Part shown: positions 1 to 42,330 of the stretch, piece after piece
How positions within the stretch are numbered: the stretch's first letter is position 1
How the letters are laid out: every line of letters begins with the position of its first letter
Assembly: GCA_964187785.1 (NCBI GenBank)
Contig: OZ076409.1
Span: 9,488,001 to 9,552,000, forward strand
Source of the DNA: Amphiscolops sp. MND2022
Lineage: Eukaryota
DNA: 64,000 nucleotides
Direction: 5' to 3'
The notes under the pieces: generated by a model
What the model was told of the DNA's origin: nothing
The model's database searches: none
Seen by the model: only the letters and a program-made list of their open reading frames with translations
Position numbers and translations under genes: made by a program

Positions 1-1539
1 TTGGGGAGCAATTGGGTGGGAGTCTCTAGCCACCTTCTTTGCTTCCTGAAGGGCAATCCCTAGAATTTCCTTCCCATCCTTGTCAAACAGTGGGGTGCCA
101 GGAATTTCCATGCGAATTCGGTGTTCTTTCGTCAAATGAGTGTCTGAACGGTAATGCGAAATTAATTCCAACGGTCCCCGGCTCATCAGCGATAGTTCCG
201 TCCTACATACTCTACACCACCACTTGTAAGGTGTTTTCTCAGCATCCAGAGGACCGGTTGCGGAAAATTTAAGTACTGGATGTTTCCTGAGCATACTCAC
301 TGTCAGTGAGTACCTAGGTCTCCTCCTCTTGCCATGTGTTGTCTGTTGCCTTTCATGCCCTTCAGATGACAGAGGTCTGGACGATGAGGGTCCGGGAAGG
401 TCTTCCTGACTTGATGTAGCTAGGAGTGTAGGATCCAGAGTGTGATCCACGATAGTTAGCGATAAGGGCTGATTAGCATCTACCCCTTCGCCGGACATGA
501 AGTTCTGTGGGATTCGTTCTAAGACACTACTTAGTGTCAGAATCTCCTGCCGAGTGACGTTAAGGCTGGGATAGGCAACGCCAGTAAAGTCCCCTTCAGT
601 AGGAGCAGTGCGGGTGGTTTCTTGAAGTCCAAGATTTCCAATCTCATAATTGGCGGGGTCATCGAGTAGAGTGGGAATTTCCCCCGTAGCGTCATCAAGT
701 AAAGTTGGAGTCAAATACTGCCCGAGTTGGAAAGGAGAAGCCTGGGCAATTTGGGGGGCAGGATAAGTCCCGGTAAAGTCATGCTGTAATACTGGATTAA
801 AATCGCCCATGTTAGTGGTGGGGGTAGTTGCAGCTGTTTCACCAAGATTGACACGTCTATCTGGGGAGTGTAATTCAGCTCTCTGTTTTGGTTCCTGTGC
901 TGAGCAGTTCTCTTCACGATTCACAGATGCAGGGGTAGTTACTACTTCTATACCCTCGTCAATGCTGAGAGGTTGAGCACTAGGAGACACAAAGGGAACT
1001 TGGAGACTGGCTGTTCTAGGCGAAGCTACTCCTAGTGGGGTAAACACTTTGTCAGGCGTCTTTACAGAAGGAGACTTTTCTGAAGTGGCGGAAGTTTTGT
1101 GAGGCGATTTTTCTGGTGAAGTCCGAGAAGTCCAGAGTTCAACTAAAACAATGATCTATTACCTAATGAAAGAAGGAAGTGGATCTGATCTAGCAAGCGA
1201 AACACGTTTGAAAATGCCTGAAACCGGACGCGGGGACAGGAAATGAAAGTAGAACGGAAGTAGCTTAGAAGTTCGAAGCGGAAACGTTTCAAAAAACCCG
1301 AATTTGGACTAGACATTTTCGCTAGCCATTTTCAAGCTGCAAGCCTGGCCAGCTTTGCAAAAAACCAAAAAGTCTCAAATCTGAATCAAAATGAACCAAA
1401 TCAAAACAAATGAGTTGAGCTTACCGGACATCGGATTGAGAGGTAAATCACTCCAAAAGTCGTCGCGGTGATGTGGCGATTGATCTTTTCTGGATCTTCG
1501 TTTGCCTGAAGAACCTGACCCGCCAGGTGTAGAATCCAT
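1..1539 (-). CDS. Spliced BED-type zinc-finger protein, 5' part (exon 1539-1425, intron 1424-1143, exon 1142 to beyond window start)
   Basis: Manual translation; absent from the ORF track because the frame runs off the window. ATG at 1539 (MDSTPGGSGSSGKRRSRK...), GTAAG donor at 1424 and TTTTAG acceptor at 1143, both phase 1. A stop-free 380-codon frame follows: S/T/P-rich linker, KRRRPR NLS-like patch, then WWCRVCRTELSLMSRGPLELISHYRSDTH (CxxC...H...H). Confidence 0.85.
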
Positions 1540-1907: not shown

Positions 1908-2056
1908 CATACGGCAGTATGCGGATCGACTAACAGCGAGTATACGGCAGTATGCGGAATTGCAGTGACGAGTATGCGGCAGTATGCGGAATTGCAGGCA
2001 AGGACTATGCGGCAGTATGCGGATCGAGTAATGACGCATACTCGGCATCCTGCAGT
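1908..2056 (+). repeat. Array of bipartite motif TATGCGG-CAG-TATGCGG, about 33-bp period
   Basis: Copies start at about 1908, 1941, 1973, 2006 and 2039 (degenerate). Half-sites are 10 bp apart and the sequence between units is variable. Confidence 0.85.
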
Positions 2057-3933: not shown

Positions 3934-4218
3934 TTGAAGCGAACAGTGTGTCTGACCATCGTCTGAAAACTGTGAAACTTTCACAATAAACAATTTGTTT
4001 TATTTGTTTTCATTTTGCCTTTTCTCTTTTTCGAAAGTCATGTAAATAACTTGTACAATTTAATGTGAAAAGGGCCTAGTTTTACATGTCATTGAGAGCA
4101 AACAATTGCATAAAACCCGAGTTAGAGTAAAGGAAACACGTGTTGATGAGCAATATGTTACGTAACATTGATTCTTATTTAGCCCAATTTAGTTCAAATA
4201 CCATTTTGTGCTGACGAC

Positions 4219-4405
4219 TATGCGGTAGTCTGCGGTTCGAGCAGTACCGCATACTCGTCATTATGCGTTATTTTGTCAAGATTCACTATGCGGCACCCTA
4301 CAGTTCGAGGAGTGACGCATACTCGTCACTATACGTTTTTTTTTGCAGAAACACTATGCGGTATTCTGCGGATTGTGTAGTGACGTATACTCGTCATTAT
4401 GCGGT
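4219..4405 (+). repeat. Second array of the element-A motif (TATGCGG/TACTCGT variants), about 33-35 bp period
   Basis: Copies at about 4219, 4252, 4286, 4320, 4355 and 4388, e.g. TATGCGGTAGTCTGCGG and TACTCGTCATTATGCGG. Confidence 0.8.
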
Positions 4406-4838
4406 TTTAGCAGGACCTTCTATATAGCTTTGGAAGCTGAAGTAATGCTATTTGGAAACCATCTTAAATGTATTTTATATCGCATTCTAGGTAATTTCCA
4501 GGGTTTTCCCTAGTCCTTTCCTTAAATATACTTAGAACGTGATGCAATTCAGCTGATGCTATAAATAGAATGACGTTACCCTGACGTAATCCTATTTTTG
4601 TCTTTTCCAAATAATGATTGCAGTAAAAATGAGTGTCATGGTATTTTTGGAGCTATTTCATTCTAAAAACTGAAGGAGAATTCATTCAATCCTGAACTGT
4701 CAACAAGTGCAGTTGCTTCTTCAAACATCTGTAAACCTTTTGGTAATTTGCTGATACTCTAGTGTCTTGTTATTTCAAATAGACAAGATAATTCAAATTC
4801 TCCCCCAAAAGCCAAAAACCATTTTCACCCAAAGCAAT

Positions 4839-5440: not shown

Positions 5441-7683
5441 TGTCGAGCCCTACCCTGTGGGTCGGCTTTGAAGAACTTTGCGATGTTGAAGGTAAGTTAT
5501 TTTCATCATTTTTACTAATAACTGCCATCAATAAGTTCTTCAGTTGACTAAATTCGCTTTGTAACTCATTTATCTTCTTCTCATAGTTCTCTTTTATTTC
5601 AGACAATTGGGACGAGATATCTGAAGGTTCGTTATTGTCAGAGTCATTGGCGGACGATTGAGCCATGTCTGGATCTATTGGAGGAGATGTTCCTGACGAG
5701 GAATGTATAACTCTACCGCTTCTAAGTTCAGTGCCTTGGTCCGGATTTATGTATTCGAGAGAAAAGAATTATGAGTGAAGACTGAATTATCTGAGATGTG
5801 TTTTCGATGTATCTTGCTGATTTAACTGAATGTTCGATCCCAAAATTCACTAATTTGAACTGAGATGTTTTAGAAAGTAGTCGTACAAATAAGTAAGCAG
5901 TTATATAAGGAAAAGAAAACTAGCAAGTTATTCAGAAGAAGTTCATCCAATGTTCATCGCAGTCGTAGATGTACCAAGAAATTACTCAGTTTAAATTTCT
6001 CAATTTCTGAAGATGAAATAGAGATGTGTTTTCTGACTTTTGCGTGTTAAAATATCCAACTTGTCGGTAGCTTGTCGCAATTCGGGCTGAGTAATATTTA
6101 ATGGCGGTCCAAATTACAGCAGTTCACGTGTCTTTTCGGTTGGTAAGACGCTAAATCTCTTACCAACCTTCTCTCATTGGCTGTTACCAGCTGGTGTTAA
6201 AATGGTAAGTCACGTGACCGGTGTTGTGAACTGCCGCAAAGTGGCCACGCACCATGGTACATCTACATGTGTTAATGGTGTTTTAGTCATCAATTTACAG
6301 TGTCGCAATTGCCTGCACATAACATCATGGTTTCTATAGTAACTAAAATGGACTCAAATTATTCAATAACGCACTAATTTCAAGCAAATTTAAGGTAAAG
6401 CACACTTTGGGATGGGAAAACGATGTTTTCCGCTGATTCTAGCACCAAAATCAATGATTTAAAACTTGAAGATGGAAATGCGATGAACTTGTAAGAATAT
6501 TTGCTGATTTCCAAGTATAGTTTAGCTCTGGATGAAAATGCGATGAATGGTAGTCTTTCTCGCTCGGAAATCAACACAATTCAAACTGACGATGACAAAA
6601 GGATGAACTCCATGTACAATTTGTCAATTTCCAGCACAGATTCAAATGACGATGAATTAGGGATGAATCCAGTCGATAAACGCTAATTCTAATACAGGAG
6701 ATTTTTGGCGATGGGTTTAGGATGAACTTGTCAGTTAAAACAGCAAATACCAGAGCAATACAAATTGACGATGAGTTTGGGATGAACTCACCGGTTAAAA
6801 CACCGAATACTAAAGCAGTTCGATTTAGCGATGAGTTTAGGATGAACTCACCCACTAAAATGGTTACTTTTCTGCACAAACGAAATCAAGATGAATTGAG
6901 GATGGGTTTACTAAACAAATCAGATAACCAGCACTTTCACTCTTTTTAGGATGAATTAAGGATGTACTTTCTCATTTCTCTTCTGTACTAGTGAACGCGA
7001 TGAATAAAGGATGGACTACTGTTCTTTAGAAACGAGAAGCACATTCAGGAATTACTAAATGAAATAATCACGATGAATTAAAGATGAGTTTTACTAGAAT
7101 AAGTCCCATAAAATCCGCTGATGGATTTCTGATGAAAGTCAGTTTAAAGTCCCATGTTTTGTTCACTCGCAAACTTTAAGGATGGGATTGCGGTGAACTT
7201 TGGTTAAAAGCACCGTTGAACCCGCTGATGGATCCAAGTGAAATTTCTGATCAGATCAAAATCGTCATCAAATTCGACGATGAATTTGTGATGAATTTAA
7301 TAGAATTTGTCACAACTACATACTCTGAGGCGGGGAGTTAGTAGAAGTTATATTTTCCATTACTTCCAATATTCCTCGGTCCAGTCTGACCGGAAAACTT
7401 CTCTCCCTTGTCGTGACAAACCAATATTTGAAATATAGCACTTTCAAGGCTAGATTCTGGCAAGATCATTTATGCGGACACCGGAACTAGAGCGCTCAGT
7501 ATTAAGTAAATATATATAACTCACACTCAAAAGGGGAAGGGATTAAAGTACAAGTAACGTAGGGTTGCTCACAACCATGGCCCTTATTATATGACATCAT
7601 ATTGCCCATATCTAAGTACATAAGACATAATATTTACATTACAGATATTAAGTAGATTACATTTCCATCATGCTGGCATGACA
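5441..7683 (-). repeat. 3' LTR of element B (2243 bp)
   Basis: Matches 22000-23833 except for a 411-bp block (6625-7035), a 2-bp indel and about 8 substitutions seen by eye. Confidence 0.95.
6411..7293 (+). repeat. LTR array of GATG-N7-GATG motifs, mostly 60-bp period
   Basis: Motifs start at 6411, 6471, 6531, 6591, 6651, 6710, 6770, 6830, 6890, 6950, 6999, 7072, 7120, 7181 (variant) and 7279; the intervening sequence is divergent. Confidence 0.9.
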
Positions 7684-7697
7684 CTCCCCGGGGCGGG
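7684..7697 (-). other. Putative short polypurine tract of element B
   Basis: Minus strand reads CCCGCCCCGGGGAG directly before the LTR start TGTCATG; only the last 6 nt are purines. Confidence 0.5.
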
Positions 7698-8986
7698 ATT
7701 TGGATTGAGAGTGCAGGGGCCAAATGTGCAGAGGATGGTTGTCTCGGCGTTGGCTTCGACTGGTTCCTTCGTTTGGTTAGGGAGAAAATTGGTCCTTCGT
7801 TCGTTCTGAATTGGCATTTCCTTCGTTTGTTCTGTCCTGTGTGTATCTTCTCTGAGAAGAGGACTATCGGCAATCGTCATGTCTGGCTTCATTCTGGGTG
7901 ATTTCGGTTAAAAATTTCGACGCGGCAACTCTAATTCTTGGCCCATCGAATGTCCGCTGATCTGCATTTTATTGGTTGTCATGCTTTTGGTGGGAGCTCA
8001 GTCTGTCGATTGTTTCGGTGGAAATCTCGATTTCCTGGTGAAAAGATTTCCTCAGGCCGCCTACGCTAAGTAAACATTCTGCTAGTTTCGTTGACAATTT
8101 GGCAGTAAATCGGCGCCATTTCTTGTCTGCCGAAGTTTCCCGGGATGAATGAACGATGAATTGTTTACTCAGCGAGACATCGATGTTGACTTAACAGACG
8201 GCTGGCGCCGCCGCTCTGTCAATCTCCGCGATAGGAAAGAGATGATTTTGTTGTCATAGCAACCGTCACTGTCGCTTCCGCTGTCTGATTTTCTCAGCGA
8301 TGAGAAAGAGATGAAATCGTCGCCATAGCAACTGCTGCTAAATTCTGATTGGCGGAAAACTGAATTTTCTGAACTGGAGGAAACTCAACCGGTTGTTAAC
8401 AAACATTCTCATCCGTGAATCATCTTCCGTCAAGTCGGTTTTGAAAATCGCCACGATTTCCTTTGCGCGTTTCCGCTCAACTTCGTCGGCATTGATCTGA
8501 GACTGGCAGCTGTCATCAAAATCAAATACTTGAAGCTTTTGTAGTCAAATTCTGGGGGGCGATTCATTTTCAGAGAAAATTGCTAAGTTGGTTGAAACTG
8601 GGAAGAAAAGTGTAGAGAGTCATTGAAATCGGAGAGTTTTCATCGATTTTTCATCTTCTGAATTTCAAGTATTTGGTTTGTCCTGTCGCTCAAGCAGCAT
8701 TCGCGCTCTTTAAAGTTTTTCGTGAATTTGTAATCTCGCAATCATGGTTGATCAGGCCATTTAATTACTGATCAAATTCTTGTCCTCAGATTCTTCGATT
8801 TCGTTCCTTTCTTCACTCTCTTCCGTTCCTTTTCAGATTGTTTTGCAATTCTTCACGATGTCGGATATCCACTCCGTCTATTCGTTACCGGAGACCGAGG
8901 CCACAGAAAATAAGTGCACTATTTTTTCTCTTCTTCACAAACGGGTTAGGGAATAATTAGGAACTGAAGGCGTGTCTTGGTTTTAG

Positions 8987-11900
8987 CGGACTCCGTTCAC
9001 TCTGTCGGCAGGCATCATTTCCGAGCTGACTACATTGCAGACAGTTCCGCCTCAAGAGGCTCCAATCCATGCAGCATCTCACGCACCTCAGTATCAACCT
9101 GAGCAGCAAATTGAACAGGCCCCTAACGTCCCGCATCTTCCGCAGTGTAAGTTCTTTCCTTTCAGATCATCATCTCAGTCTACAATCTCTTCTTTTCTCA
9201 TCCCCGATCCATTCAGACGCTGACTCTTTCCGTTACTGTTTAGATCACTATCCCTGGTATGCCTCCCTCGGTAGCATCACCTTCGGGTGGTATGATCGCC
9301 ACATGCGGGACATGCTACGAGATAGCATCCAGCAATTTAGTGAGTTGACTCCATTTTACTTTCCTCCTGTACTAAGGCATCGTCCGGACACTCCGATGTA
9401 ATTCCGATGTAAACATCTCATCTGCATGTAGTGCCCTACGCGGTCGGTTACCTCATAAAATTCATTTTTAGGATGAATTTAGGATGTATCATGAATATCC
9501 ACAGTTTTCATGGCTGATTCGTTGCGAATTCCATTTTGAGGGTGGATTTGAGATGAATTCTTCTCCTGTCTTCTTTCTTCGCGCGGCGTACGCGCACTTT
9601 CTTCTTCATTCGTCGTCGTCTGATTTCTGTTTCCTTCTTTCAGGTACAACGCCTATCCATGCCCCGAGACCGCGTCCCATCACCTATTCTATCGGGATCG
9701 GGACCAGTGACTTCGGTGATGGCAGTGTTGACGTCAGCACACAAGGAGGGCCTCCTCAACTCAACCTCTCCTCGTTCCTCAATGAACTGTCGCTAACTGG
9801 AGTGAGTTCTCCTGTCAGGCAGGCGCCAGTGTCTGTACTGTCGCCAGTGTTGAGGCGATCTTTCACCGTTGCTAGTCCTCCTCCTGCTCGTATTACTCTC
9901 GACGCTGCTGTAAATGCTGTTGTCGATTGTAGAGACATGGCCATCAATGCCTGTGTGGGCGTTGCAGATCAAACTGTCCAAGCTGTCACTGAAACTGGAG
10001 ATGCTGCTACCTGCTATGATCCTCCAGCGATTACTCCACCGTCTTCTCCTCCTCCACCGATTGCTGATGTTCCTGGGGCAGTTGACGTTGACGTTGCCCC
10101 GTCCGAGGTTCCCTCAGCTGGCACCACCGAGACCCTACTGGAAATCCCTGACGATTTCTCATTTCGTAGTACTCCGTCTGGCGTGTCTGCTCCAGGGAGT
10201 GTTGCGTCCAATGTGGCTACTGCTGACATCGAGAAGTCTCCAATGGGACCCAGCCTGTTGGACTCCGATGACGAGCCCATTGCATCTCGTCTGCCAGGTT
10301 AACTAAACAGCTTTAAACCGGTGAAGTATCTGATCAGTAGATTTTCATTCATTTCCTTCTTCGTTTTTACTTTCACTAGCATTTTTCACGTTTTTCTTCT
10401 TTTCTATCCATTTTCCATCGTTTTTCTGTTTTCACTATATGGTTTTCTGCAGTTTTCCATTTTCCATCACTTTCTCATCGTCAAAAGTTTTGAACAATAG
10501 TCTTTTCGCTCTCTGGTCCTTTTTTAGAACTTTCCATCTCTTTTACATCTTTAAAATTCCTCGTTTCGGTTTTCGCTATTTTTCAGTGTTTTCTTTTCAG
10601 TTTACATCTCTTTTTCATCGTTAAGTTGTTTTCGCTCTAAAATATCTCAATTTTGGTTTAAAGTCGTTCTATTCATCTCTTTTCCATCGTTCGAGTTTTT
10701 CATTCTTTAAAGTTTCCATTTTTCATTCTGGTGGTGTGCAAACACATCTCTTTTTCATCTTTTCGTTTTTTCTTCGTTTTTCGCTTATATTTCCTATGAA
10801 AATATTATTTTACATCATGTTTTCATCACTCCGGGTGAACTTTTTTGGTTTTTACTTGTGACTTTTGCATTTTTCGATTTTTCTGATGTGTAACAGATGA
10901 TTTTAGTCGTTGTCTATGATGGTTTGTAATGGTATTACTTTTGCTATATTGTGTGGTTGTGATTATCAGGAAAGAAAGTGATCAAGTCTGGATGGTTTGA
11001 TCATCCATACTGCGGGCTGGCGCTAGGATATGCACGCAATCACGAGTCGCGCATGTCGTATGTGCGATGTCTAATGTGCAAGAGAGATGTTAAGGTGGGC
11101 AGCCGAGGCATTACCACCTTTATGGAGCACTGCCGAGGCCTAGGCCATCATCGGCTGGATTGTGTGGTACGGCTGCACCGAGGGCTACCGTTGCGGCGAC
11201 GTGATGGAACTCTCATGACAAGTGACGAAAGTGCAGAATGCCGTGTGAACCTGGAGGGGGTGTCCGTGCCTTTCATAGAGACCTGTCCATCACTTAATGT
11301 GGTGGAAGTTTTCGAGTTGGAGGGTGCTGGACGACCTGTGTGGGGCGACGAAGAGGAAGGGGAAGACTGGCCAGAGCGAACTGTTCGTCTGTTTATTTGC
11401 TTTGTTGTGGACGCCCTATATCGTGATTGTCAGTTTGCCAGTGTCACAAACCTGTGGGAAGTGTTGGTGGCTTCCGATCCCCAACATGCGGTCTTGTTTG
11501 GGGCGCAATGCGGATTGAACGATGTCATGGTAAGCGTCTACTCGTATGTTTTTTAGTCATACTTTTGGCCATTATGTGTTCTTCTAGTTTTAGTAGTGGG
11601 TGGGGGGTAGGGTGGATGCTATTTTTATGTTTTATTCACAGCGTTTTTGTTTTAGAGCGTGATCGTATTAGGGCTGTGGCCGTACGTGATGCGGCGACTG
11701 ATCACTGTCTGGACCGATAGCACTTACAGTAGCTTCCATTTGTCAGTTGTGGGAGGGCGCGTGACAGGGACTGTTACAGTGTGTGTGTTAGACGGGGTCA
11801 AGCTTTACTGTGTGTTTAGCTTCACTGTGGCTCGAGACTGGGAAAGCAGGGTAATCACATGGCTAGTGAACATGTGGTGCTGTATGCTCGGTGAGCCAGT

Positions 11901-13446
11901 CCCACTTGGACTGTGTTGCGATGAGTTGCCGCAGCTGGGTGGGCTCTTTCGAAGCAGGACAGGAGTCGGATCATTGGACGTGAAGTCTCTGGGTCTGTCA
12001 GATGTCAGTCGGGCAATTGTGGATGTGTCCGGATCAGTGCTGGGGGGTACAGACATTCACGTGGTACTGAACAATTTACAGAAACGTCTCAAAGGATACG
12101 TGAAAGATCCTCTGTTGCTAGGATGCCCTCAACTTCTGCAAGTACGTAGTATATTAGAGAATTGGTTGATGTAATAATTTTAGTGTTGTGCAGGTGTGTA
12201 GGCGTGATGTAATTGTTTGATTTTATCGAATTGATTGGGATGGTATTATTTACATTTTAGGCGATTCTTACCGGCGAGGTGTACATTTGGACCCTGGCCG
12301 ATGTGTGCGAGGGGTTACGGACGAACTGGTCTGACATCTTATGCTTGCTACGCTTCGCTAGTGGTGAAGGGCCTTTGGATGCCTTAGACTTGACACTACG
12401 TGCTGAGATCGGCATTCCGATTAGACTCCGTGTTCTTGGTCTTGTGTACCGTGCTTGTTAGTAATACTTTAGTTCTGTAAGTTACGGGGGGGTTTTGGTT
12501 TTTTTGTTGAGATCGAGTTGGAAGCTATACGGTTGTGGGTGTAATGTTAAACCTGGTTGTTTCTTGTGATAATTGTGATTCGTGTTTTTCAGTGATCAGC
12601 TCCTACGAGAAGAGTTTTGGGTCTTCGACGTTGCGCGCGTGCTACTGGGCAATTGAGAGTGCTGCCTTTGTGAAGTCACTGATGATGATGCTAGTAGAGG
12701 AAGAAAAGCTACCATCGGAATTGGACATTCGTGGATGGCTCTTTCTGAATGTGGAAAGCTATGAAATCTCAGAAGTGAAACATCAGGTGTTGCTGGACGG
12801 ATTTCGTTGTGTGGACGATCAAGGCTCGAATGCCGCTCTATATGAAGAGGATTTGTCACTTGTTCCGGTTTTCATTCTAACCGTTGTGAAGACTGTTATT
12901 AATCTGCCAGGTGTGCGAGACGATCTGTCGTTTGTGCGCAGTGTTTTCAGTATGCCCTGTCTGAGTTTTGTTGCAGAGGACGTCCTATTAGACGAGATCA
13001 GGATTTTCACTGATGTGCTTGTGGATCTGGGTCGGATCACCCGTGCGGAGCAGGGTCGGATGGAACGTGGCTTTCTGGATTTCCTTGTCAATATCCGACG
13101 TGACCCGGGACTAGCAGGACGTACAGAGGGTTGTTCTGTCATCGATCTTCTTCGCCATTGTTCTAGTGGTGGCGCTCAGAATCTGCTTCGCAGTGTTTTA
13201 TGCCTACATGGAGGAGTTCAGAGCAGAAGCAGTCTTTGCTGCGATGGATTTGGGCAGTTAAGTAGCGATGTCACGAGTTGTGTTTGTGCTGTGATTTTGG
13301 CCTATTTGTCTGCTAATCATATCCAAAGTTATGACAGTGTGAGCGGCCCTTTGTTAGAGGAAGTGACTGAGTCACATCGACGATTGGTCAATTTGGCGGA
13401 GCTGGACGAGGGTATGTTGTGGGACGACATCGGAATTGTGGCCTGA
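8987..13446 (+). CDS. Multi-exon antisense accessory gene of element B: low-complexity N-terminus, BED zinc finger and degenerate hAT-transposase-like body (about 1010 aa or more)
   Basis: Exons 8987-9146, 9217-9339, 9644-10297, 10970-11529, 11656-12141, 12261-12456 and 12593-13446. All six introns are GT..AG and phase-compatible (1,1,1,0,0,1); total 3033 nt = 1011 codons. Zinc finger CLMCKRDVKVGSRGITTFMEHCRGLGHH. The first exon is unresolved (candidate ATG 8858 with a damaged donor near 8910). The frame continues past TGA 13446 to TAA 13530. Confidence 0.8.
10405..10827 (-). repeat. Intronic array of the element-B motif (CATC-N7-CATC on plus strand), about 70-bp period
   Basis: Starts at 10405 (variant), 10465, 10535, 10605, 10674, 10745 and 10813. 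Confidence 0.88.
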
Positions 13447-13838
13447 GAAGATTATCGTCTCCAATTGTATGCGAAGCTAGGATACACGCTTAGTGGGGAA
13501 CGAGCTGCCAGTCCGGAGATCGGCAATTAATGATTGAGATCCAACTGTAAACTCCGTTGTTTGAAACTTTTGTTTTGCTTTGCTCGATTTTATATTATAG
13601 TTAGTATTTTGTTATCATAATGGGTTGCCAAGAGAAATGAGAATACTGGGAGGGGGGAAAATTAAAAGGCTACGTCGGAAAGTTCGGTAGCTTGTATTTA
13701 CAAGTTAAATGATGTGGCACCCGAATTGTTTTTCTCTTGAGATACTAGTTAGTGATTGAGGTCGTAGGCAGGTTAGGTTTGCGGATCATTAGTTTCTGCT
13801 GTTAGGTCACGTCATTCAGAGTTTCAAATTTCATCTAG

Positions 13839-14221
13839 CATCGTTTTCACATCGTTTTTGCGTTGTCACAATTCTCAGCTAGTCTTTTTGCGGTAATCAT
13901 CGTTATTACATCTCGTGGGAGTGTAGGTGATTCGGTAGCGTTTCATTTTTGATTTCTCATCTCATTTTCATCACGTTTTCCTCGGTCGGCCGAGCGACGT
14001 TGCGAAAACTGATTTCTCATCTTTTTTACATCGTTTGTTATATGCGATTCATTGCATGTTTGTTACATGTGATTTTTCTACATAGTTCATCGTTTTTTCA
14101 TCTTGCCTTTTAATTTTTGCATTTTTGCTAGTTTTTTGGTGTAATTCATCGTTTTTGCATCGCAAGTTTGACTTGGCAAGTTTTTTGCTCGTTTTGCGGT
14201 ATAGTTCATCTTCTTTTCATC
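13839..14221 (-). repeat. Array of the element-B motif (CATC-N7-CATC), about 60-bp period
   Basis: Starts at 13839, 13898, 13958, 14018, 14088, 14147 and 14207. Confidence 0.88.
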
Positions 14222-15150
14222 GTAATTTTGAAGTTTTGTAATTTTGTGCGTTTTCGTGGCTCTGTGACTCTGACGTTTTCGGGAATGTACTTTTCATATG
14301 GTATGTGCATGTTTTACTCATTTTATACTGTCTCAGTATGATTTTCATTCTCTTTTTAATTTTACATGTCGTTTTGGTGTTCGTGGTATTTTCATAATGT
14401 AATCTTTTAATGGGTTACCCCATTATTTGCATGTTGGTTATTTCTTGATTTTGTTCGTCAATTTGGACAGGGCTTTGTCGTCTCAAAGCCCCTACAAAAC
14501 TAACTGAGAATCCACTAGCCGCTGGATAACCAACGCAGCAAGCTTCATCCGAATATGGTTGTGAGCTCCCCGCCTCAACTAACCAGCACTCTTTTCAGAG
14601 AAATGCCAGCCAGCACGAAGGAATGTTTTTGGCTTCTCGATAGGGGTGTTTTGCTTGTTATGAACTGATGTTTGCTGGGGGGTGCTCACTCCTTTATTCG
14701 TTTTGTAGGTGTTTCGTCAGTTCTTATATTTTGCATGTAAGTTATTAGGCTTCATGTATTTTCGATTGTTTGTTTCATTTTTATTCGTCTAGGTTTGGGT
14801 GGCTTTGGTGTGAATTGCATATATTATCTCGTTCGTTTTTAAACGGTACATGTATATTTCCGTGTGTTACTCATTTGTATTGCATGTAGTTTGGAATTTT
14901 CAATTTCTTTCGTGACGTCATTGATTTGGCAGGTCTTTGAACTTTACATGTATTGATCATTTCATTTTTGTGTCGCATAATTCTGTTTGCATGATTCGAA
15001 ATAAAGTCGGTTGTTTTTTATCGTTTCGTGGAGTTACATGTTGTTTGAGAGTTAGCTGATTTATTGTGATGTTATGTTGATGGTGTTTCCCATCGCAAGG
15101 AGGTTTTGGTAAGTCATTTAATATTTTCGAACTTCCATTTAGACTAAATT

Positions 15151-15685
15151 CATCGTTTTGACATCCTCCAGCGAAGCTAGAGTATTGTGTCAGGTTAACG
15201 ATAAATTCGGTCACGATTTGATGGTAGCGTCCATCACAAATTCATCTCGTTAATTGATTTCATGTAATTTATGAATAATTGGATCGAGTTCATCGCTATT
15301 TCATCCTCTAGCCGAGCTAGAGTCTTATGATAGCATGAACGTGAGTGCGTTCGCATTCTGATGGTATTTTCCATCTCAAATGCATCGCTAGTAAATATTG
15401 CATGTTGATTGGTCGAATTTTTGACTGAGTTCATCACTTTTTAATCTCTCGTGTGTCTGAGCTAAATTTTCATGTGATTTCATCCTTTTTTCATCTCAAA
15501 TTTTTGTGTGTTGTTTTTTCTGGTTTTTTGGTCGTTTTTCATCCGTTTTACATCGTGTTTTGTTTTTATGCGTTTTTCATGTGATTTTTAGTAACTCTTC
15601 ATCCATTTTACATCTTCATGTTCATTTTAAATTGAAATTGCATGTAATTGACTCGTTTTTGTGAATTGTTCATCTTTAACACATC
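15151..15685 (-). repeat. Array of the element-B motif (CATC-N7-CATC) just 3' of pol
   Basis: Starts at 15151, 15232, 15291, 15372, 15432 (variant), 15481, 15540, 15600 and 15671. Confidence 0.88.
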
Positions 15686-15713
15686 GTGTGTTTTGAAATG
15701 TTGTTTTTCTTGG

Positions 15714-18700
15714 CTAACTCGTTACGTTTACTTTGTTGGTCTTTCTCAGAGAGTTTCTGGCTGATGTAATCTCATGAATGAGGAAGTCAGGATATTTTTT
15801 CGGTGTAGGGTTTTCGCGTAACCTGTACCTACTTTGATTGTTTCTAGACGGTCTAGAACTCATCCTTTCCTCATCTTCAGTTTGTGTGTTTGTCTGTTGT
15901 GATTGATTTTCGTGTTGTTCGTCTCTCAGAGGTACTCTTATCCTACTTTCATCGCGGGGGGGGCGGTAGAATAATTTCTTCTTGCGTTCCAAATCTAACT
16001 CTAGGTGGTCTAAAGTTGTTGTGGTCAGTTTCTACTTGCTGATAATCTATTCTCGTGGTTACTTCTGGTGGAATTACTTGTGGACTGTGTTGTTCTTGTA
16101 CCTGCGGAATTATTTCTTCTGAAGGCTCTTCTTCGACTAAGTCTTGATCTAGATTGTCATTCTCATTCTGATCTACTTCGTCGGTCGTCGGAATATTCGA
16201 GTCGAAAATGTCCGTGTCTTCAACCCTTTCAGTGTCTGGGTAGAGATGTTTGGACACGTTGATGTCATCAATCGGAAATTCCGGTTTGAACAATCTCAGT
16301 CGCATGCGATGTACGCACTGAGTTTGGTGTGTGCCTACTTTGCGGATGATGTAGTTGCTATCGGATAGCACTTTCATCACCTTGTACGGTCCTTTCCAAT
16401 GGAAAGTTTTAAACTCTTCTTTGCTTCTCTGAGAGTCGTACTTATGATCTAGTAGGAACACAAATTCATTCACCTTCAGTGGCTGTGCTCGTGCTTTTCT
16501 ATCATAGTACGTTTTGTACTTATGATAGGCGGAAATGATGTTATCTAGATTGTCTCTGAAGATGAAGTTCATTTTGTCTAGAATTTCGTTCACGTCCTTG
16601 CACTTTGTTTCAGCCGGTTTGTTTGCGTTTCGGAATTGCAGATCTAGTGGGTTGTATGGTGTTCTTCCGTGGAAAATTTCAGTTGGTGAACATTTCAGTG
16701 AATCATGATACGTTGTGTTATGGGCCATGATTGCTATGTCGACATAGCGGTCCCATTGTGGTCGGTCTGCCTTTACACTAATTTTAAGGATCTTTTTCAG
16801 TTTCGCGTGCGTTCTCTCCACCATGCCTATTGTCTGTGCGTGCTTTATCGTGGCATGGGAGATGTGAATATCAGCCGCTTTCGCGATTTCAGACAGAAGT
16901 TCAGCCGTGAACGCCGTGCCCTTGTCCGTCAGAATGTGCTTGGGCACATACGCGTGTTTCGTGAAGATCGACAGTAATCCTCTGACTACGGAATGTGTAT
17001 CAGGTCTCTTCAGCGGAACGGCGAACAGGTAGCGTGAAAAAACGTCAACAGCCGTCAGAATGTGTGTAAAACCGTTCGACGCCGGGAGTGGACCAACGAT
17101 GTCTATTTCCAACAGGTCTTCTGGTCCGTCGCACGGGTCGTAGATTTTTTGTAACGGTGGACGTAGTTGCGTTTCTTTTACACTTTTAGATTTCATGCAG
17201 TTTTCACATCCGTCAAGGACTTTTTGAACTTTACAGGCTAAGTTAGGAGAGTAATATCTTTTACGAAGTTCGTACAACATTTTCTTTAAACCAGGGTGTC
17301 CTTGTACCGGGCTGTTATGTAGAGTCCTAATTATTTTCAAAATACAGTCTTCAGGAACAACTAACTGCTTGTGAGACTCCAGTCCCGTGTGATCAAAAAA
17401 CTGTCTGTACAAGACACCGTTTACAACTTGTAGGCGTTTTCGATTTTTGTGCAACTTTTGAAAAAACTGATCTTGCATATTAACTGGGTGTTGCAAAATT
17501 TCAGTACCTTCTAAAAATCTAATCATTTTTTGAAAAACCCAGTTATTTTTCTGGACCTGAATTAGATCGATCCCCTCAGCGGGGCTAACCTGACTCATTA
17601 CCGGGTGTGATAATGATACTTTACGGATGAATTGCGAGAGTTGAATTGGCTCGTCCACGTCTGTGAGGCGGTACGTCAGATGGTTGTCAGTCGCGAAGTC
17701 ATCTGAGGCCGCTGTTCTCTCACAGTTGGTGAACTTCATCCCTTTCCCATCGTCATGAGCCACGTCAGTGCCAGTTGCCAATTTCATCTCTTTGACATCC
17801 TTCTGGCGTTTGCATCTGAGTGGTTCGCTCGTGGGAAAGTAATCAGGCTCGTCTTCCTCCTGTTTTGGTGTACGGGAGGCGATGTCGATCTCGATCCTGT
17901 GAATTGGAATAGTATCAGTCAATTTTAAATGTACACGGTCTTCAGGTCTAATCTCAAGCCGAGATAAGTAGTCCGCTGCGGGATTTTCAACTCCTGGAAC
18001 ATGTGCTAATAAAAAATTGAACTGAAGGGTTTGATCGCAAAAATTCCAAAGTGAAGGCGGGATATGCTTCGCCTGAAAAAATCTAGTCAAGGCCTTATTG
18101 TCAGTCATAACAATGATGGGTTTTTTCGCACCCCACAGAATGTGGCCAAATTCATCGAAGGCAAAGTGCATAGCTAAAAACTCTTTGGCATACATTGTTA
18201 GAGACATCTGGCCGCCCTGAAATTTCTTAGAGCCAAATGCAACAGGGGCGTATGTTTGTTTGACTGACGGGTCAGCATAATCCTCAATTAACAAAACATA
18301 GCCGGCAGCGTGTTCGCTGGCGTCACACATGATTACCAATTGTTTATCAGGTAATGGCAATTTCAGAGACACTTTTGTTGCTTTTAACAAACTTTCATTG
18401 ATTTCAAAAATAGCATCTTTATGTTGTTGATTCAGTTTGAAAGGGACGTCCTTCTTGATCAATTCCTGTAAACAACAAGTTTTATCAGCTAGTCGGGGAA
18501 TATAAGACCTGTAAAAGTTTACAAAACCAAGATAACGTTGCAATGCTTTCACTGAGTTGGGGGGTTTTAATTTGGTCAGATAGTCAGTTACTCGTTTCTC
18601 AATGGGAGCAATACCGGTGCTAGAAATGGTTTTTCCCAAGTACTCAATTTGTTTTTGTCCAAATTCACAATTACTTATGCTAAGTTTAAGACCGGCTTTG

Positions 18701-20807
18701 TTCAGCTGCTGAAAAACAAGTTCAAGGTTATTAATCAGTTCGTCAGGGGTGTGTGCTGCAATTCCAATGTCATCAACATATTGAGCACATCGGTCCGCTT
18801 TGACCAAGAGGTCCAAATACTCACGGACTACACTTGTGAATGATGACAAAGAACGGGTAAGACCTTGGGCTAGACGTAAAAAGGCAAAAGTTCTAGAACC
18901 AAAATTAAACGATAACAGTTGGACAGACTGCTCATCGGCCATTGGAATGCAATGGTAGGCCTGGGAACAATCAAGTTTACAGAAATACTTTTTCCCGGCC
19001 ATGTGTTGGGCAGCGTCAGCAATTGTTTTTACAGGATGGTTGTGTTCACCGTAATCGTTTTTGATCATGTGGTTTATTCTTCTCAAGTCAACTAAAATCC
19101 TCAATTTACCATTTGGTTTACGTTGAGCAAATATCGGAGATGAGTATTTGCTATGAGGCAAAGTAGTTATGATCCCGTACTCTTGCATTAAAGCTAACTC
19201 CACGAGCAAATCGTCCTTCAAATTTGTCGGAGTAGGGAGACTTTGTGAATAAACAGGTTCTTCATGTTGGGGTGTTAGCTTAACTTTAAAATCAGTGTTC
19301 ATGCCAATATCAAAACGATGTCTAGCAAAAATGGAGTTGTACTTTACCAGCAACTCCTCTACCTGTAACCGTTGAGACGGAGTAAGAAGCGAGTCGTCCC
19401 AGTTGAAGTTCTTCAGGAAGTTCATCCGTTGTTCATCGGATTGGGACGGGTCAAGCTTCTCGAGCTCTCGTAGTGCCAGAATCTCATCATAGATTCGTCG
19501 CTCAATTGCGTTGAGTTTGTCTGGCTCACTGCACGTCTCGGGAGTTGGGTACCACTTAGTTGACTTCATTTCAGGGTTCACGAACAGTTGGTTGATCACT
19601 GCTTCCGCCTCATCTGGGTACTTGGTGATCAGGTTCAAGTGTTCGACTGGCATGGGTGTGATGTTTGCCGCCTGATGTGGTGTCGGTATGCGAAAGTGTG
19701 CCAGAGTGGTGTTGGCATCAAGTGTGAACGTGTGGTTGTTCGGGTTGGTGACCTGGATTGTCGTCTTGCCCTCGTCTAGGTCAACCAAAGCTGGAGAAAC
19801 AAGCAAACACGTCTTTCGCATGAATCCAGGTGAGCCCTCAACTGTACCAGTTGTAAGTGAGATGTCCGCGTCACTGTGGACCTGTATCATCACTTGATGG
19901 AGAGGAGGGATCACTGTTCTGGTACTGGAACACAAATCAATTAAACCAGTCTTGAATCTGTTGTTCTTTTGCTGTCTAACTTGCATGGACATCATGTGAT
20001 TAGGGAAGTGGACAAGGTGGTTTTTTATGTCTAAATTGACTGAGTACTTTCAAAGAATGACATTCCAATTAAAATTGTGCCCATTGTTGGAAGGATTAGG
20101 AACGTTTCTTCGAAGACTTTTCCAGCAACGTAAAATCTAAGTAAGACTTGCTTACGTACTGGGACTAAGTTCCCGTTTGCTATTTGAATTTTGAAATTCG
20201 GAGGGGGGAGTTCTTGAAGGATGGCTTCTGGATGAGCCGTTGTTATTTTTCGCAATTATGCTTCAGACATTGCACTTTGAATTGCGCCTGTATCTAAAAG
20301 TGCGCTGTTTTCATATTTGTCAAACTGAAGAGGGACGTAAAGCATTTTATCTTTCTTGTTTAAGTGTAAAGTGGGACTGAGAACGTGAATTTCTGTTTTA
20401 ATTACATGTTTTTTAGCTTTTGAAACGTTAATACTACTCTGTTTTGCATGTTTTTTAATACTATGCCGTTTGTCGATTGTTGAGTGTGAAGTCGAGTCGT
20501 CGTCAAGATGGTTGGTTTCCATCTCTTTGGCATCTTCCACCTGCCTCATGGTGTTTTGTTGCCAGTTCATCGTTTGTTCATCGTTGATTTCAGCGAGTGG
20601 AGAAAAGCGGCTGCCGTTGCGTTGACGTGCAATTCCCATCGCTTTTTCATCGTTGGAAAGTCTTCGCTGATAGACGTCGTCAGCTTTTGGTCGTTTGTCC
20701 AGTGAAGGCTGCCATTTCTTCATTGGACGGTTGTGTGTAGTCGGTTGAGTCGAAAGTCGTTTGTCGCGCGTTGTATTTCTAGCGGGCGGAAACCGTGGCT
20801 GAATCAA
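15714..20807 (-). pseudogene. pol: Pol polyprotein of element B (protease, RT, RNase H, integrase) with three lesions
   Basis: LLDTGA protease; RT motifs KLDCSQAY and YVDD; RNase H CDAS...EFLA...TDN; integrase H-H-C-C, DIVGP..TDKG..VER and WKGPY. In-frame TAA at 20256-20258, a frameshift near 20045 and another in the G-run near 15960. Confidence 0.95.
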
Positions 20808-22309
20808 AAACCCTGGTTAATGTCTTCATCAGAGTAGCTTAGTTGTTCGTCGTCCTCAGTAATTGCTTGCATTGGATTCATCAGCTTTTGCTGTCGTTTT
20901 AAATCTTGTCGTCTAGCCTTGTTGTCGTCCTGTGAATTTGTTGTGTATGGAATCTTTCCATATGCAGAGCTGCTTTCCTTGGGAATGCGTCGCCTGCAGT
21001 CTCTTGCAGAGTGGCCGGTGTATCCACAAATCTGGCAAACCAGCTTGGGATTGTACTTCGGTTTGTCTGTGTCGGTTGCTTTCTTCATCGGAATTGCATC
21101 TTCTTTCTTAATGCCGTTTGCTTCGTCACGTTGTCGGGCGCGGCATTCTGTTTTGCGGTGACCTGTCTTTCCGCAGTAGAAGCATTGTCCCTCAAATCGT
21201 TTTCGTTCTGTCGGTTGTGTTGTCGTCGTTGTTGCTGGTTTAATCGTTGTGTTGGTCGTTGGGACCGAGGATGTGACCGCGTTAAATGGTTGAATTGTCG
21301 TAGGTGGCGCAACGTACTGTTGGTACTGGTACTTTCTCATCAAGTATGTCTTGATTTCTTCTGGTGAGCTCTCCTCCTTATTGGCCATCGTAAGTTCTTG
21401 TTGTATTTCGACTGGGAGTTTACCGAACAAGAACATTTTGATGATTTTATCCGCTTCTTCCCCAAATGCTTGTTTCGCAGTCTTTTTCAAGTTTTTGAGG
21501 AAGTCGCTGAATGTTTCTGTGGTGGGATCGTAACGGGCTTGATCCCATTTGTAGCGAGCTACTTCTTTAAGGTCCTCTTTCGCGAATTCTTTCCTGAAGA
21601 GGTCGAGCACATCTGTCAGTGTTGCTAGTGGCGTTATCTGGATGGATTGCCAGTATTCTATTGCATCATCTCTCAAAAGGCTTTGAAAGAAGTGGAGTTT
21701 GTTCTCTTCGGTGATTTTGTTGGCGAGCGGGCTAAGGTGGTTGAGGAGAAGGTGCTCGAATTCCACGAATTTGTCTTTTTGGCCTCTGAAATTTGGGACG
21801 TGTGTCTGTAGTAATTTCGTGTTGGTGGTGGTGCTTTTGATTCGTTGGGGGATCGTCTCGATTGCATTGAGTAGTCGTTCCTCATTGCTTCTAGGAGTTG
21901 ATTCACCTTCTTCGTCCGAGTCGTCTTCCTGGTATCGCCTGAAGTTTGTGAAGCTGGATGTCGGGCTGGTGGAGCGGGTTTCTGTAACTCCTGTCACCAT
22001 GTCGAGCCCTACTCTGTGGGTCGGCTTTGAAGAACTTTGCGATGTTGAAGGTAAGTTATTTTCATCATTTTTACTAATAACTGCCATCAATAAGTTCTTC
22101 AGTTGACTAAATTCGCTTTGTAACTCATTTATCTTCTTCTCATAGTTCTCTTTTATTTCAGACAATTGGGACGAGATATCTGAAGGTTCGTTATTGTCAG
22201 AGTCATTGGCGGACGATTGAGCCATGTCTGGATCTATTGGAGAAGATGTTCCTGACGAGGAATGTATAACTCTACCGCTTCTAAGTTCAGTGCCTTGGTC
22301 CGGATTCAT
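20804..22309 (-). CDS. gag: Gag of element B (501 aa) with two CCHC zinc knuckles
   Basis: Capsid-like region VPNFRGQKDKFVEFE...LRDDAIEYW; knuckles CFYCGKTGHRKTEC and CQICGYTGHSARDC; ends on a GGGTTTT slippery heptamer. Confidence 0.95.
   Translation of the reverse strand: MNPDQGTELRSGRVIHSSSGTSSPIDPDMAQSSANDSDNNEPSDISSQLSEIKENYEKKINELQSEFSQLKNLLMAVISKNDENNLPSTSQSSSKPTHRVGLDMVTGVTETRSTSPTSSFTNFRRYQEDDSDEEGESTPRSNEERLLNAIETIPQRIKSTTTNTKLLQTHVPNFRGQKDKFVEFEHLLLNHLSPLANKITEENKLHFFQSLLRDDAIEYWQSIQITPLATLTDVLDLFRKEFAKEDLKEVARYKWDQARYDPTTETFSDFLKNLKKTAKQAFGEEADKIIKMFLFGKLPVEIQQELTMANKEESSPEEIKTYLMRKYQYQQYVAPPTTIQPFNAVTSSVPTTNTTIKPATTTTTQPTERKRFEGQCFYCGKTGHRKTECRARQRDEANGIKKEDAIPMKKATDTDKPKYNPKLVCQICGYTGHSARDCRRRIPKESSSAYGKIPYTTNSQDDNKARRQDLKRQQKLMNPMQAITEDDEQLSYSDEDINQGF
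21986..21999 (-). promoter_or_regulatory. Primer-binding site of element B
   Basis: TGGTGACAGGAGTT immediately follows the LTR end ...CTCGACA. It resembles the complement of a tRNA-Leu 3' end; isoacceptor not certain. Confidence 0.8.
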
Positions 22310-23833
22310 GTATTCGAGAGAAAAGAATTATGAGTGAAGACTGAATTATCTGAGATGTGTTTTCGATGTATCTTGCTGATTTAACTGAATGTTCGATCCC
22401 AAAATTCACTAATTTGAACTGAGATGTTTTAGAAAGTAGTCGTACAAATAAGTAAGCAGTTATATAAGGAAAAGAAAACTAGCAAGTTATTCAGAAGAAG
22501 TTCATCCAATGTTCATCGCAGTCGTCGATGTACCAAGAAATTACTCAGTTTAAATTTCTCAATTTCTGAAGATGAAATAGAGATGTGTTTTCTGACTTTT
22601 GCGTGTTAAAATATCCAACTGGTCGGTAGCTTGTCGCAATTCGGGCTGAGTAATATTTAATGGCGGTCCAAATTACAGCAGTTCACGTGTCTTTTCGGTT
22701 GGTAAGACGCTAAATCTCTTACCAACCTTCTCTCATTGGCTGTTACCAGCTGGTGTTAAAATGGTAAGTCACGTGACCGGTGTTGTGAACTGCCGCAAAG
22801 TGGCCACGCACCATGGTACATCTACATGTGTTAATGGTGTTTTAGTCATCAATTTACAGTGTCGCAATTGCCTGCACATAACATCATGGTTTCTATAGTA
22901 ACTAAAATGGACTCAAATTATTCAATAACGCACTAATTTCAAGCAAATTTAAGGTAAAGCACACCTTGGGATGGGAAAACGATGTTTTCCGCTGATTCTA
23001 GCACCAAAATCAATGATTTAAAACTTGAAGATGGAAATGCGATGAACTTGTAAGAATATTTGCTGATTTCCAAGTATAGTTTAGCTCTGGATGAAAATGC
23101 GATGAATGGTAGTCTTTCTCGCTCGGAAATCAACACAATTCAAACTGACGATGACAAAAGGATGAACTCCATGTACAATTTGTGAAGCACATTCAGGAAT
23201 TACTAAATGAAATAATCACGATGAATTAAAGATGAGTTTTACTAGAATAAGTCCCATAAAATCCGCTGATGGATTTCTGATGAAAGTCAGTTTAAAGTCC
23301 CATGTTTTGTTCACTCGCAAACTTTAAGGATGGGATTGCGATGAACTTTGGTTAAAAGCACCGTTGAACCCGCTGATGGATCCAAGTGAAATTTCTGATC
23401 AGATCAAAATCGTCATCAAATTCGACGATGAATTTGTGATGAATTTAATAGAATTTGTCACAACTACATACTCTGAGGCGGGGAGTTAGTAGAAGTTATA
23501 TTTTCCATTACTTCCAATATTCCTCGGTCCAGTCTGACCGGAAAACTTCTCTCCCTTGTCGTGACAAACCAATATTTATGAAATATAGCACTTTCAAGGC
23601 TAGATTCTGGCAAGATCATTTATGCGGACACCGGAACTAGAGCGCTCAGTATTAAGTAAATATATATAACTCACACTCAAAAGGGGAAGGGATTAAAGTA
23701 CAAGTAACGTAGGGTTGCTCACAACCATGGCCCTTATTATATGACATCATATTGCCCATATCTAAGTACATAAGACATAATATTTACATTACACATATTA
23801 AGTAGATTACATTTCCATCATGCTGGCATGACA
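22000..23833 (-). repeat. 5' LTR of element B (1834 bp)
   Basis: Direct repeat of 5441-7683 with a 411-bp deletion at the 23183/23184 junction; contains the first 103 codons of gag. Confidence 0.95.
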
Positions 23834-30850: not shown

Positions 30851-30900
30851 ATATTTAACGCATGCTTCTTTCTGCGCAGGTGTTCAACAAGGTTCTCTGC

Positions 30901-42328: not shown

Positions 42329-42330
42329 CC

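What the first reader, a model, noticed from the sequence alone, without database searches (positions are those of the whole stretch)
5794..23441. GATG-N7-GATG occurs about 50 times in element B, clustered in non-coding DNA with spacing near multiples of 10 bp
Seen: arrays in both LTRs (about 60-bp period), in intron 10298-10969 (about 70-bp period), at 13839-14221 and at 15151-15685 (gaps 81, 59, 81, 60, 49, 59, 60, 71). Singletons occur near 5794, 5944, 6012, 8145, 8299, 8410, 8641 and 9472. Only the two 4-mers and their 11-bp offset are conserved; the spacers diverge. LTR arrays read GATG on the plus strand while internal arrays read CATC, so orientation relative to the genomic RNA is not fixed. 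Inference: this is a double-stranded DNA signal under selection, bound by a dimer or multimer on one helix face, or tied to nucleosome phasing. A plain minisatellite or an RNA signal would not show this pattern.
Basis: partly seen in the sequence, partly recalled or inferred. Interest (0 to 1): 0.85.

Follow-up and report, generated by a model that had tools for sequence, protein, structure and literature searches.

The report
Retrotransposon docking lattice with own finger
A jumping gene carries 55 copies of a two-part DNA word (GATG, seven bases, GATG), spaced in step with the DNA helix and written even into its coding sequence, and it also carries a backwards, intron-split gene for a zinc-finger-like protein that likely binds this word, which would give the element a private label for regulating or protecting its own copies.

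Summary
GATG-N7-GATG occurs 66 times in 5794-23441 (55 counting one LTR) against 0.9 in shuffles; no other spacing is enriched. One-mismatch versions are not enriched, array flanks are barely above random identity, and 7 copies sit in gag-pol as D-x-x-x-M codons (0.7 expected). So both half-sites are under DNA-level selection. Site-to-site distances are helically phased (10.0-bp lattice; p about 0.001). Corrections: the spacer is not free (A/T at its centre, purines beside each GATG), and the motif is not confined to non-coding DNA. New: this Ty3/gypsy element carries an antisense, multi-exon gene of about 1000 codons with a BED-like C2H2 finger. It belongs to a multi-copy family whose predicted recognition helix is its most conserved part. 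A sister element next door has a homologous finger with another helix and arrays of another spaced repeat (weak evidence, n=2). Best reading (0.55): sites for the element's own finger protein, working like plant VANC. Binding, expression and function are untested, and no DNA of relatives could be fetched. A host factor is the main rival (0.25).

The parts
5441..7683 (-). 3' LTR of element B (TG...CA on the minus strand), 2243 bp; 17 motif copies, 16 reading GATG on +
   Evidence: flanked by ATATA target duplication; short purine tract before it
6411..7293 (+). LTR array: 10 consecutive sites at 59-60 bp, then gaps 49, 73, 48, 159
5795..6026 (.). three single sites around the predicted TATA box and leader of the LTR (5795+, 5944-, 6012+)
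8144..8655 (.). four single sites between the 3' LTR and the start of the antisense gene
8860..13533 (+). antisense multi-exon gene (predicted exons 8988-9146, 9244-9339, 9644-10297, 10970-11529, 11656-12141, 12261-12445, 12600-13446; first exon uncertain); about 995 codons open to an in-frame stop at 13444, where most close relatives continue for 28 residues
   Evidence: GT-AG introns give one open frame; relatives; splicing not shown by RNA
10970..11529 (+). exon with the BED-like finger C-x2-C-x16-H-x5/6-H (predicted helix SRGITTF), followed by three predicted helices
9395..9486 (+). two sites in predicted intron 9340-9643
10465..10899 (-). intron array: 6 sites at 68-71 bp plus one opposite-strand site at 10885
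13839..14221 (-). array of 7 sites, gaps 59-60 and 70
15068..15875 (-). array of 8 exact sites plus one one-mismatch site (15432), gaps 81, 59, 81, 60, 49, 59, 60, 71; outliers at 15068 (+) and 15861 (-)
15949..20049 (-). pol ORF (RT, RNase H, integrase); motif sites at 17737, 17785 and 19423 in frame as D-x-x-x-M
20050..20816 (-). gag-protease linker and protease region, interrupted in this copy by an in-frame stop at 20256-20258 and a frame change near 20050; motif sites at 20520, 20568, 20637 (in frame) and 20220 (+)
   Evidence: protease motif LLDTG is recalled, not hit by Pfam
20804..22309 (-). gag with two CCHC knuckles; the ATG lies inside the LTR and the frame runs through the PBS; motif site at 21086 in frame
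21985..21999 (-). primer-binding site beginning TGG directly after the 5' LTR
22000..23833 (-). 5' LTR, 1834 bp; 8 substitutions against the 3' LTR; lacks 411 bp (7 sites) that the 3' LTR has; 11 motif copies
1..1155 (-). neighbouring element A: exon encoding a homologous finger protein (P0167, predicted helix SRGPLEL), cut by the window edge
   Evidence: (prob 92%, E 5.6e-7)
1910..2044 (+). element A internal array of TRCGG-N5-TGCG (10-bp offset), period 32-33
4217..4411 (+). element A second array, homologous to the first, period 68, upstream of a TATA-like box and a gag-like start ending at the LTR end 5418

Best explanation
The motif is a helically phased array of DNA sites kept by selection across the whole retrotransposon, and it is likely read by the zinc-finger-like protein predicted from the element's own antisense gene. 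Shown by sequence: the motif, its selection, its phasing, the antisense reading frame and a finger family with a conserved predicted recognition helix. Inferred: two BED-like fingers, one per GATG, would sit head to tail in successive major grooves 11 bp apart, with the A/T-rich spacer's minor groove facing the protein. Pairs set every 48-81 bp on a 10-bp lattice would let an oligomer coat LTRs, introns, spacers and flexible coding linkers on one face. The most likely purpose is a family-specific label that keeps integrated copies open or transcribed (VANC-like anti-silencing or trans-activation; about 0.3 overall); autoregulation or insulation is the next option. An origin of the gene from a hAT transposase is a recalled resemblance that the tools did not confirm.
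For: Selection on both half-sites: 55 exact against 22 one-mismatch sites, where other spacings give 14-42 one-mismatch counts; neutral decay at the flank rate would give 7-10 one-mismatch sites per exact site. 7 of the 8 D-x-x-x-M in gag-pol use the codons that spell the motif; synonymous shuffles give 0.71, and 0 of 2000 reach 7. Phasing p about 0.001 on 13 collapsed gap classes. Candidate binder in cis: zf-BED in 11 of 30 family members at E up to 1 (best 0.002); ZBED2 BED domain among 3 PDB hits (E 0.26); ESM Atlas neighbours CGGBP1-like, zf-C2H2_12 and zf-BED clusters at 0.87-0.90; the model shows two strands then helices over the finger. The helix is the most conserved segment (0.94 identity against 0.54-0.62 for the linker and the helices after it). 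The gene is multi-copy: clusters of 26-50 members in 7 of 8 looked up. The Hermes BED domain reads a 4-bp word that needs an A/T-rich flank and binds pairs cooperatively (PMC10368747, passages). The sister element A has a homologous finger with a different helix and a different spaced repeat, and no GATG-N7-GATG. Stretches C and D gave no finger hit and no such motif.
Against: No binding, expression or chromatin data. The finger scores below Pfam's zf-BED cut-off (15 against 20.6 bits), and the Atlas recognition value (2209) is under its 2300 mark. DNA around relatives could not be fetched, so it is not shown that the other family members lie in LTR elements or carry the motif. The co-variation rests on two elements. 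A's arrays are young tandem repeats (76-89% matches), its best pair scores only 4.85 against a shuffle maximum of 4.81, and a solo-LTR reading of A is not excluded. Linkage alone makes gene and motif differ together between families. The solved Hermes pair is quasi-palindromic, not a direct repeat. CpG o/e does not separate B (0.73-1.28) from array-free C (1.10), so there is no methylation footprint. This copy's gene has a late stop.
Confidence: 0.55

Rival explanations
1. The sites recruit a host DNA-binding protein (activator, insulator or pioneer factor), as the 12 Su(Hw) sites of Drosophila gypsy do; the finger gene does something else or binds other DNA.
For: Precedent: a 340-bp gypsy insulator with 12 clustered sites in A/T-rich spacers (PMC2374998, passages). 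The largest LTR array lies 500-960 bp upstream of a TATA box with a CCAAT box in between, an enhancer position. All selection and phasing results fit this reading equally well.
Against: The lattice covers introns, spacers and coding linkers over 17 kb rather than one insulator block. The neighbours A, C and D in the same genome do not use the word. The element carries its own finger gene with a conserved helix.
Confidence: 0.25
2. The element's own protein, or integrase or Gag, uses the lattice on the cDNA or the pre-integration complex (compaction, nuclear import, target tethering) rather than on integrated chromatin, or the word is an RNA signal.
For: Sites run along the whole element; all 7 coding sites and 31 of 38 internal sites read GATG on the genomic RNA strand.
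Against: 16 of 17 LTR sites have the opposite orientation. Orientation follows the locally A-rich strand (45 of 55). No RNA structure signal in 4 array stretches. Helical phasing points to duplex DNA.
Confidence: 0.09
3. The arrays set nucleosome rotation or DNA bending with no sequence-specific reader.
For: The lattice fits 10.0 bp, not 10.5; 35 of 55 spacers hold an A-tract-like run.
Against: Nucleosome positioning is degenerate (established knowledge) and would not hold 8 bases invariant with no one-mismatch excess, nor fix synonymous codons. A-rich DNA or a protein surface also gives about 10 bp per turn (recalled).
Confidence: 0.07
4. Neutral tandem duplication (minisatellite), or left-over subterminal repeats of a DNA transposon nested in the element.
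For: Parts of the LTR array are recent duplicates (period 60, 78% matches); slippage could spread units.
Against: Flanks are at 0.34-0.37 identity (0.27-0.33 expected from composition) while cores are intact; the four arrays are unrelated to each other outside the motif yet share gap classes. Coding sites exist. No TIR-plus-TSD pair brackets the antisense gene, and the motif fills the LTRs.
Confidence: 0.04

Closest known systems
VANC anti-silencing proteins and their target motifs in Arabidopsis VANDAL (Mutator-like) transposons (PMC5735166, passages read)
   Same: A transposon-encoded accessory gene; a short motif piled up in introns, intergenic and terminal non-coding DNA, often as tandem arrays; family-specific motifs.
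   Different: Here an LTR retrotransposon, probably not of a plant; a BED-like finger instead of the MAIN-like VANC fold (PMC13547354, passages); a bipartite 4+4 direct repeat on a helical lattice that also enters coding DNA; binding and anti-silencing untested.
Retand/Tat plant Ty3/gypsy elements with antisense TRP28 ORFs and tandem arrays between pol and the 3' LTR (PMC11963269, PMC7264820, passages read)
   Same: A long pol-to-3'LTR region with an antisense gene of predicted DNA-binding function and repeat arrays.
   Different: No TRP28 domain here; a multi-exon gene with a finger; the arrays are one conserved motif in diverged units, present also in LTRs and gag-pol. The passages seen do not link ORF and arrays as protein and site.
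hAT transposase BED domains and subterminal repeats: Hermes (PMC10368747) and domesticated CGGBPs (PMC8097297), passages read
   Same: A finger predicted to read a 4-bp word with an A/T-rich flank, in cooperative pairs, at many dispersed sites; diverse specificities among relatives.
   Different: Sites are not at transposon ends; no TIRs; direct rather than palindromic pairs; the gene rides in a retrotransposon; a hAT catalytic body is not demonstrated.
Drosophila gypsy insulator bound by host Su(Hw) (PMC2374998, passages read)
   Same: Clustered protein-binding sites with A/T-rich spacers in a Ty3/gypsy element.
   Different: One 340-bp block and a host protein there; an element-wide phased lattice and a candidate element-encoded reader here.

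Membership tests
Ty3/gypsy LTR retrotransposon | TG...CA LTRs, target duplication, PBS and purine tract | tested here: met
   LTRs 5441-7683 and 22000-23833, ATATA on both sides, TGG-starting PBS, short purine tract
Ty3/gypsy LTR retrotransposon | gag with CCHC; pol order RT-RNase H-integrase | tested here: met
   zf-CCHC, RVT_1, RT_RNaseH, Integrase_H2C2, rve in this order
BED zinc finger | C-x2-C...H...H ligands with an upstream aromatic, two strands and a helix | tested here: met
   the pattern's role is recalled; model pLDDT about 50-89 over this part
BED zinc finger | Pfam zf-BED above the gathering score, or a fold match to a solved BED domain | tested here: inconclusive
   15 bits against 20.6; best member E 0.002; ZBED2, E 0.26; fold searches of a low-confidence model gave no clear match
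BED zinc finger | sequence-specific DNA binding | not testable with these tools
   needs EMSA, PBM or SELEX
hAT transposase (source of the gene) | RNase H-like DDE body and C-terminal hAT dimerisation domain | tested here: inconclusive
   no Pfam hAT family for exons or relatives; no PDB hit; models too weak. The likeness in exon order and spacing is recalled only.
hAT transposon nested in the element | terminal inverted repeats with an 8-bp duplication around the gene | tested here: not met
   none with at least 10 of 12 TIR matches and a near-perfect 8-9-bp duplication
VANC/VANDAL system | carried by a Mutator-like DNA transposon; VANC (MAIN-like) domain | tested here: not met
   the carrier is an LTR element; no such Pfam family
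VANC/VANDAL system | short motif accumulated in introns, intergenic and terminal DNA as arrays | tested here: met
   7-10 sites per kb in LTR, introns and spacer; 0 in antisense exons; 0.7-0.8 per kb in pol and gag
VANC/VANDAL system | protein and motif co-vary between families | tested here: inconclusive
   two elements only; no DNA of relatives
VANC/VANDAL system | protein binds the motif and removes silencing | not testable with these tools
   no chromatin or binding data
Retand-type antisense ORF | antisense ORF and repeat arrays between pol and 3' LTR | tested here: met
Retand-type antisense ORF | TRP28 (PF04195) domain | tested here: not met
   no hit

The most novel reading that the evidence does not exclude
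A clade of LTR retrotransposons, probably of an animal, captured a hAT-type BED-finger gene, keeps it antisense and spliced, and uses it as a private chromatin reader. Each family paints its whole length, codons included, with a helically phased lattice of a direct-repeat word matched to its finger's helix, a VANC-like anti-silencing code evolved independently in a retroelement, with finger and word diversifying together.
Probability: 0.3. Interest if true: 0.88.

Novelty: new variant of a known kind. Interest (0 to 1): 0.72.

Why it matters
Antisense extra genes and repeat arrays of LTR elements are long known, and reviews call their function unknown (PMC7264820, PMC11963269). Here both occur with a precise, testable link: a predicted finger, an 8-base bipartite word and a fixed geometry. 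If true, sequence-specific self-recognition of the VANC type would not be limited to plant DNA transposons. A family of natural finger variants with matching motifs would also offer a recognition code that can be read from one genome. Selection that bends gag-pol codons to a DNA motif is notable whichever protein binds.

Tried and rejected
No whole genome is held for this window. No RNA holder was listed; this says nothing on expression. No related loci: the finger alignment in metagenome contigs (357 stretches, none confirmed), pol in viral (1 stretch) and metagenome contigs (61 stretches), none confirmed. A triple-motif scan of viral contigs gave 75 loci, none similar to element B by blastn or tblastn; treated as unrelated. 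A longer-protein search with the finger exon found none of 882 candidates (weak evidence). Structure models were low-confidence (pLDDT 57 and 59.5), and five fold searches gave no clear match, so a hAT fold is neither shown nor excluded. The dimer prediction of the finger exon gave no verdict (alignment not used). A co-occurrence test of gag and pol with the finger gene failed because those exact ORFs are not in the collection. An HMM shuffle test returned no output; the Smith-Waterman control in the same call worked. A third half-site at -11 or +22 was rejected (1 and 0 of 55). A nested DNA transposon was rejected. D's top spaced pair (AGCC, offset 12, 3 copies) is two LTR copies of one site plus one. 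CpG o/e was uninformative. Literature: ten searches listed no paper whose title or abstract start describes a BED-finger gene in an LTR element or this motif; most subscription papers are not in the library, two VANC papers were not held, and no supplements were read.
Full report
The element. The stretch 5441-23833 is a Ty3/gypsy LTR retrotransposon on the minus strand. Its LTRs (5441-7683 and 22000-23833) begin TG and end CA, are flanked by ATATA, and differ by 8 substitutions, a 2-bp indel and a 411-bp segment absent from the 5' LTR. A PBS follows the 5' LTR; gag has two CCHC knuckles and starts inside the LTR; pol has RT, RNase H and integrase in gypsy order. This copy's protease region is interrupted by a stop and a frame change. 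The host is a eukaryote, probably an animal: this is inferred from GT-AG introns, from the taxa of the Atlas neighbours and from a neighbouring element with a Monjiviricetes-type fusion gene. It was not identified.

The motif is real. There are 66 exact copies in 5794-23441 and 1 in the rest of the window; other spacings give 0-4. Counting one LTR, there are 55 against 0.9 in block shuffles. With all identical-word pairs at offsets 6-20 competing, its score is 59 against a shuffle maximum of 4.6 (0 of 40 shuffles). Density is 7-10 per kb in the LTR, two introns and the spacer before pol, 0 in the antisense exons, and 0.7-0.8 in pol and gag.

It is under selection as DNA. One-mismatch sites number 22, within the 14-42 seen at other spacings, whereas neutral decay at the flank rate predicts 7-10 per exact site (a rough estimate, and array units were anchored on the motif). 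Flank identity within arrays is 0.34-0.37 (0.27-0.33 from composition); between arrays it is at background. All 7 coding sites read D-x-x-x-M in frame, and 7 of the 8 such peptides in gag-pol use the motif's codons; synonymous shuffles give 0.71 and codon shuffles 0.17, with 0 of 2000 reaching 7. Both orientations occur, the GATG strand being the locally A-rich one in 45 of 55. Four array stretches show no RNA fold signal on either strand.

Phasing. The 33 same-strand gaps of at most 100 bp fall at 48-49, 59-60, 68-71 and 81, with outliers 73 and 77. Collapsed to 13 classes across arrays, phasing at 10-11 bp has p about 0.001 against uniform gaps. Over 101 pair distances up to 250 bp the best period is 10.0 (R 0.80; 0.17 at 10.5), also without the LTR array (56 distances). 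These distances are not independent, and 11-bp slippage between the half-sites could help create gap classes, though only 1 of 55 sites has a third half-site nearby.

The element carries a candidate reader. Between the 3' LTR and pol, on the opposite strand, GT-AG introns join seven exons into one frame of about 995 codons (the first exon is uncertain, and no RNA run was listed). After a long low-complexity N-terminus comes C-x2-C-x16-H-x5/6-H. Homolog searches found 41 relatives of this exon among 99 candidates (29 aligned), 94 at greater depth and 27 of the last exon among 1179 (23 aligned). All those with a source shown are unnamed ENA proteins. Seven of 8 clusters looked up hold 26-50 members; of the 15 members listed for each exon's own cluster, 5 share contig lengths. 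The window copy stops 28 residues early, while 14 of 15 listed members of its cluster end in the common C-terminus. The predicted helix is the most conserved segment among close families (0.94). Across 46 distinct fingers RGITTF occurs in 22, and distant clades carry other helices. Evidence for a BED finger is consistent but sub-threshold: zf-BED in 11 of 30 members, 15 bits against a cut-off of 20.6, ZBED2 at E 0.26, Atlas neighbours from CGGBP1-like and zf-BED clusters. The rest of the protein resembles a catalytically degenerate hAT transposase in my recall only; Pfam, PDB and fold searches neither confirmed nor excluded this.

A second data point next door. Region 1-5418 ends in a gag-like start at an LTR end. 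A relative of that ORF runs into the same PBS-encoded residues as B, and two contig lengths each hold two members, so A looks like a sister element whose 3' LTR ends at 5418. Its minus-strand ORF P0167 has the same layout and a homologous finger (hhalign 92%, E 5.6e-7; HMM E 6e-6 among 1112 window segments) with the helix SRGPLEL. A has no GATG-N7-GATG, but has two homologous arrays of TRCGG-N5-TGCG with a 10-bp offset (6 copies; 0.02 in shuffles for this pattern chosen after the fact). This is weak: the arrays are young tandem repeats, the unbiased score is marginal (4.85 against 4.81), and the element is cut by the window edge.

Mechanism. Shown: motif, selection, phasing, open antisense frame, finger family. 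From the literature: the Hermes BED domain binds a 4-bp word that needs an A/T-rich flank, and pairs bind cooperatively through DNA shape (PMC10368747, passages); hAT-derived CGGBPs show diverse specificities (PMC8097297, passages); VANC binds a short motif piled up in introns, intergenic and terminal DNA and removes silencing family by family (PMC5735166, passages). Inferred: two fingers read the two GATGs one turn apart with the A/T spacer facing the protein, and an oligomer coats the element along the 10-bp lattice, keeping its copies open or active. Anti-silencing as the specific job is about 0.3; CpG content gives no support either way.

Relation to known systems. It works most like VANC but is not a member: the carrier and the domain differ. 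It shares the antisense-gene-plus-arrays layout of Retand elements (PMC11963269, PMC7264820, passages) without their TRP28 domain. PMC13547354, PMC13317346 and PMC12859917 (passages) discuss VANC only for plant DNA transposons in what I saw. Ten searches (listings only, except the papers named) showed no description of this motif or of a BED-finger gene in an LTR element; the library lacks most subscription papers, and supplements were not read. Earlier AI notes of this scan report similar lattices and antisense zinc-cluster genes in fungal retrotransposons. They are unchecked leads: they suggest that the design recurs, and one warns that linkage can mimic co-evolution. Four other look-ups of those notes were empty.

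Verdict. The feature is real and selected, a new variant of a known kind, with a concrete and testable reader. Interest 0.72.

Noticed in passing
window 2885-3933 (+): Two overlapping ORFs inside element A, running opposite to its finger gene: an acidic low-complexity part and a short part with CxxC; no Pfam hit. Possibly a second accessory gene.
   Followed up: partly
window 22309-21999 (-) and 4839-5418 (+): In both B and A a gag-like frame starts inside the LTR. In B it reads through the PBS; in a relative of A (P0279) it stops shortly after the PBS.
   Followed up: partly
window 6625-7035: 411 bp with 7 motif copies present in the 3' LTR and absent from the 5' LTR; the junction is not at a motif.
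   Followed up: partly
window 30881-48973 (+): Gypsy element D with short LTRs, broken pol and an ORF at 42541-44640 matching Pfam Monjiviricetes_fusion (E 4e-24), followed by further unidentified ORFs up to 48485.
   Followed up: no
window 23834-30880 (-): Decayed gypsy-like element C with RT, RNase H and integrase remnants; no spaced motif and no finger gene.
   Followed up: partly
window 51181-57866: Near-identical tandem segments (period about 3.7 kb, with internal 0.8-kb duplication) containing 54/107-bp repeats with TGACGTCA-like words; similar words recur at 63284-63354.
   Followed up: no
window 2025-2044, 4238-4257, 4306-4325: Element A's arrays also hold an inverted pair CGAG-N12-CTCG, with a reversed TGCG half-site inside.
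   Followed up: no
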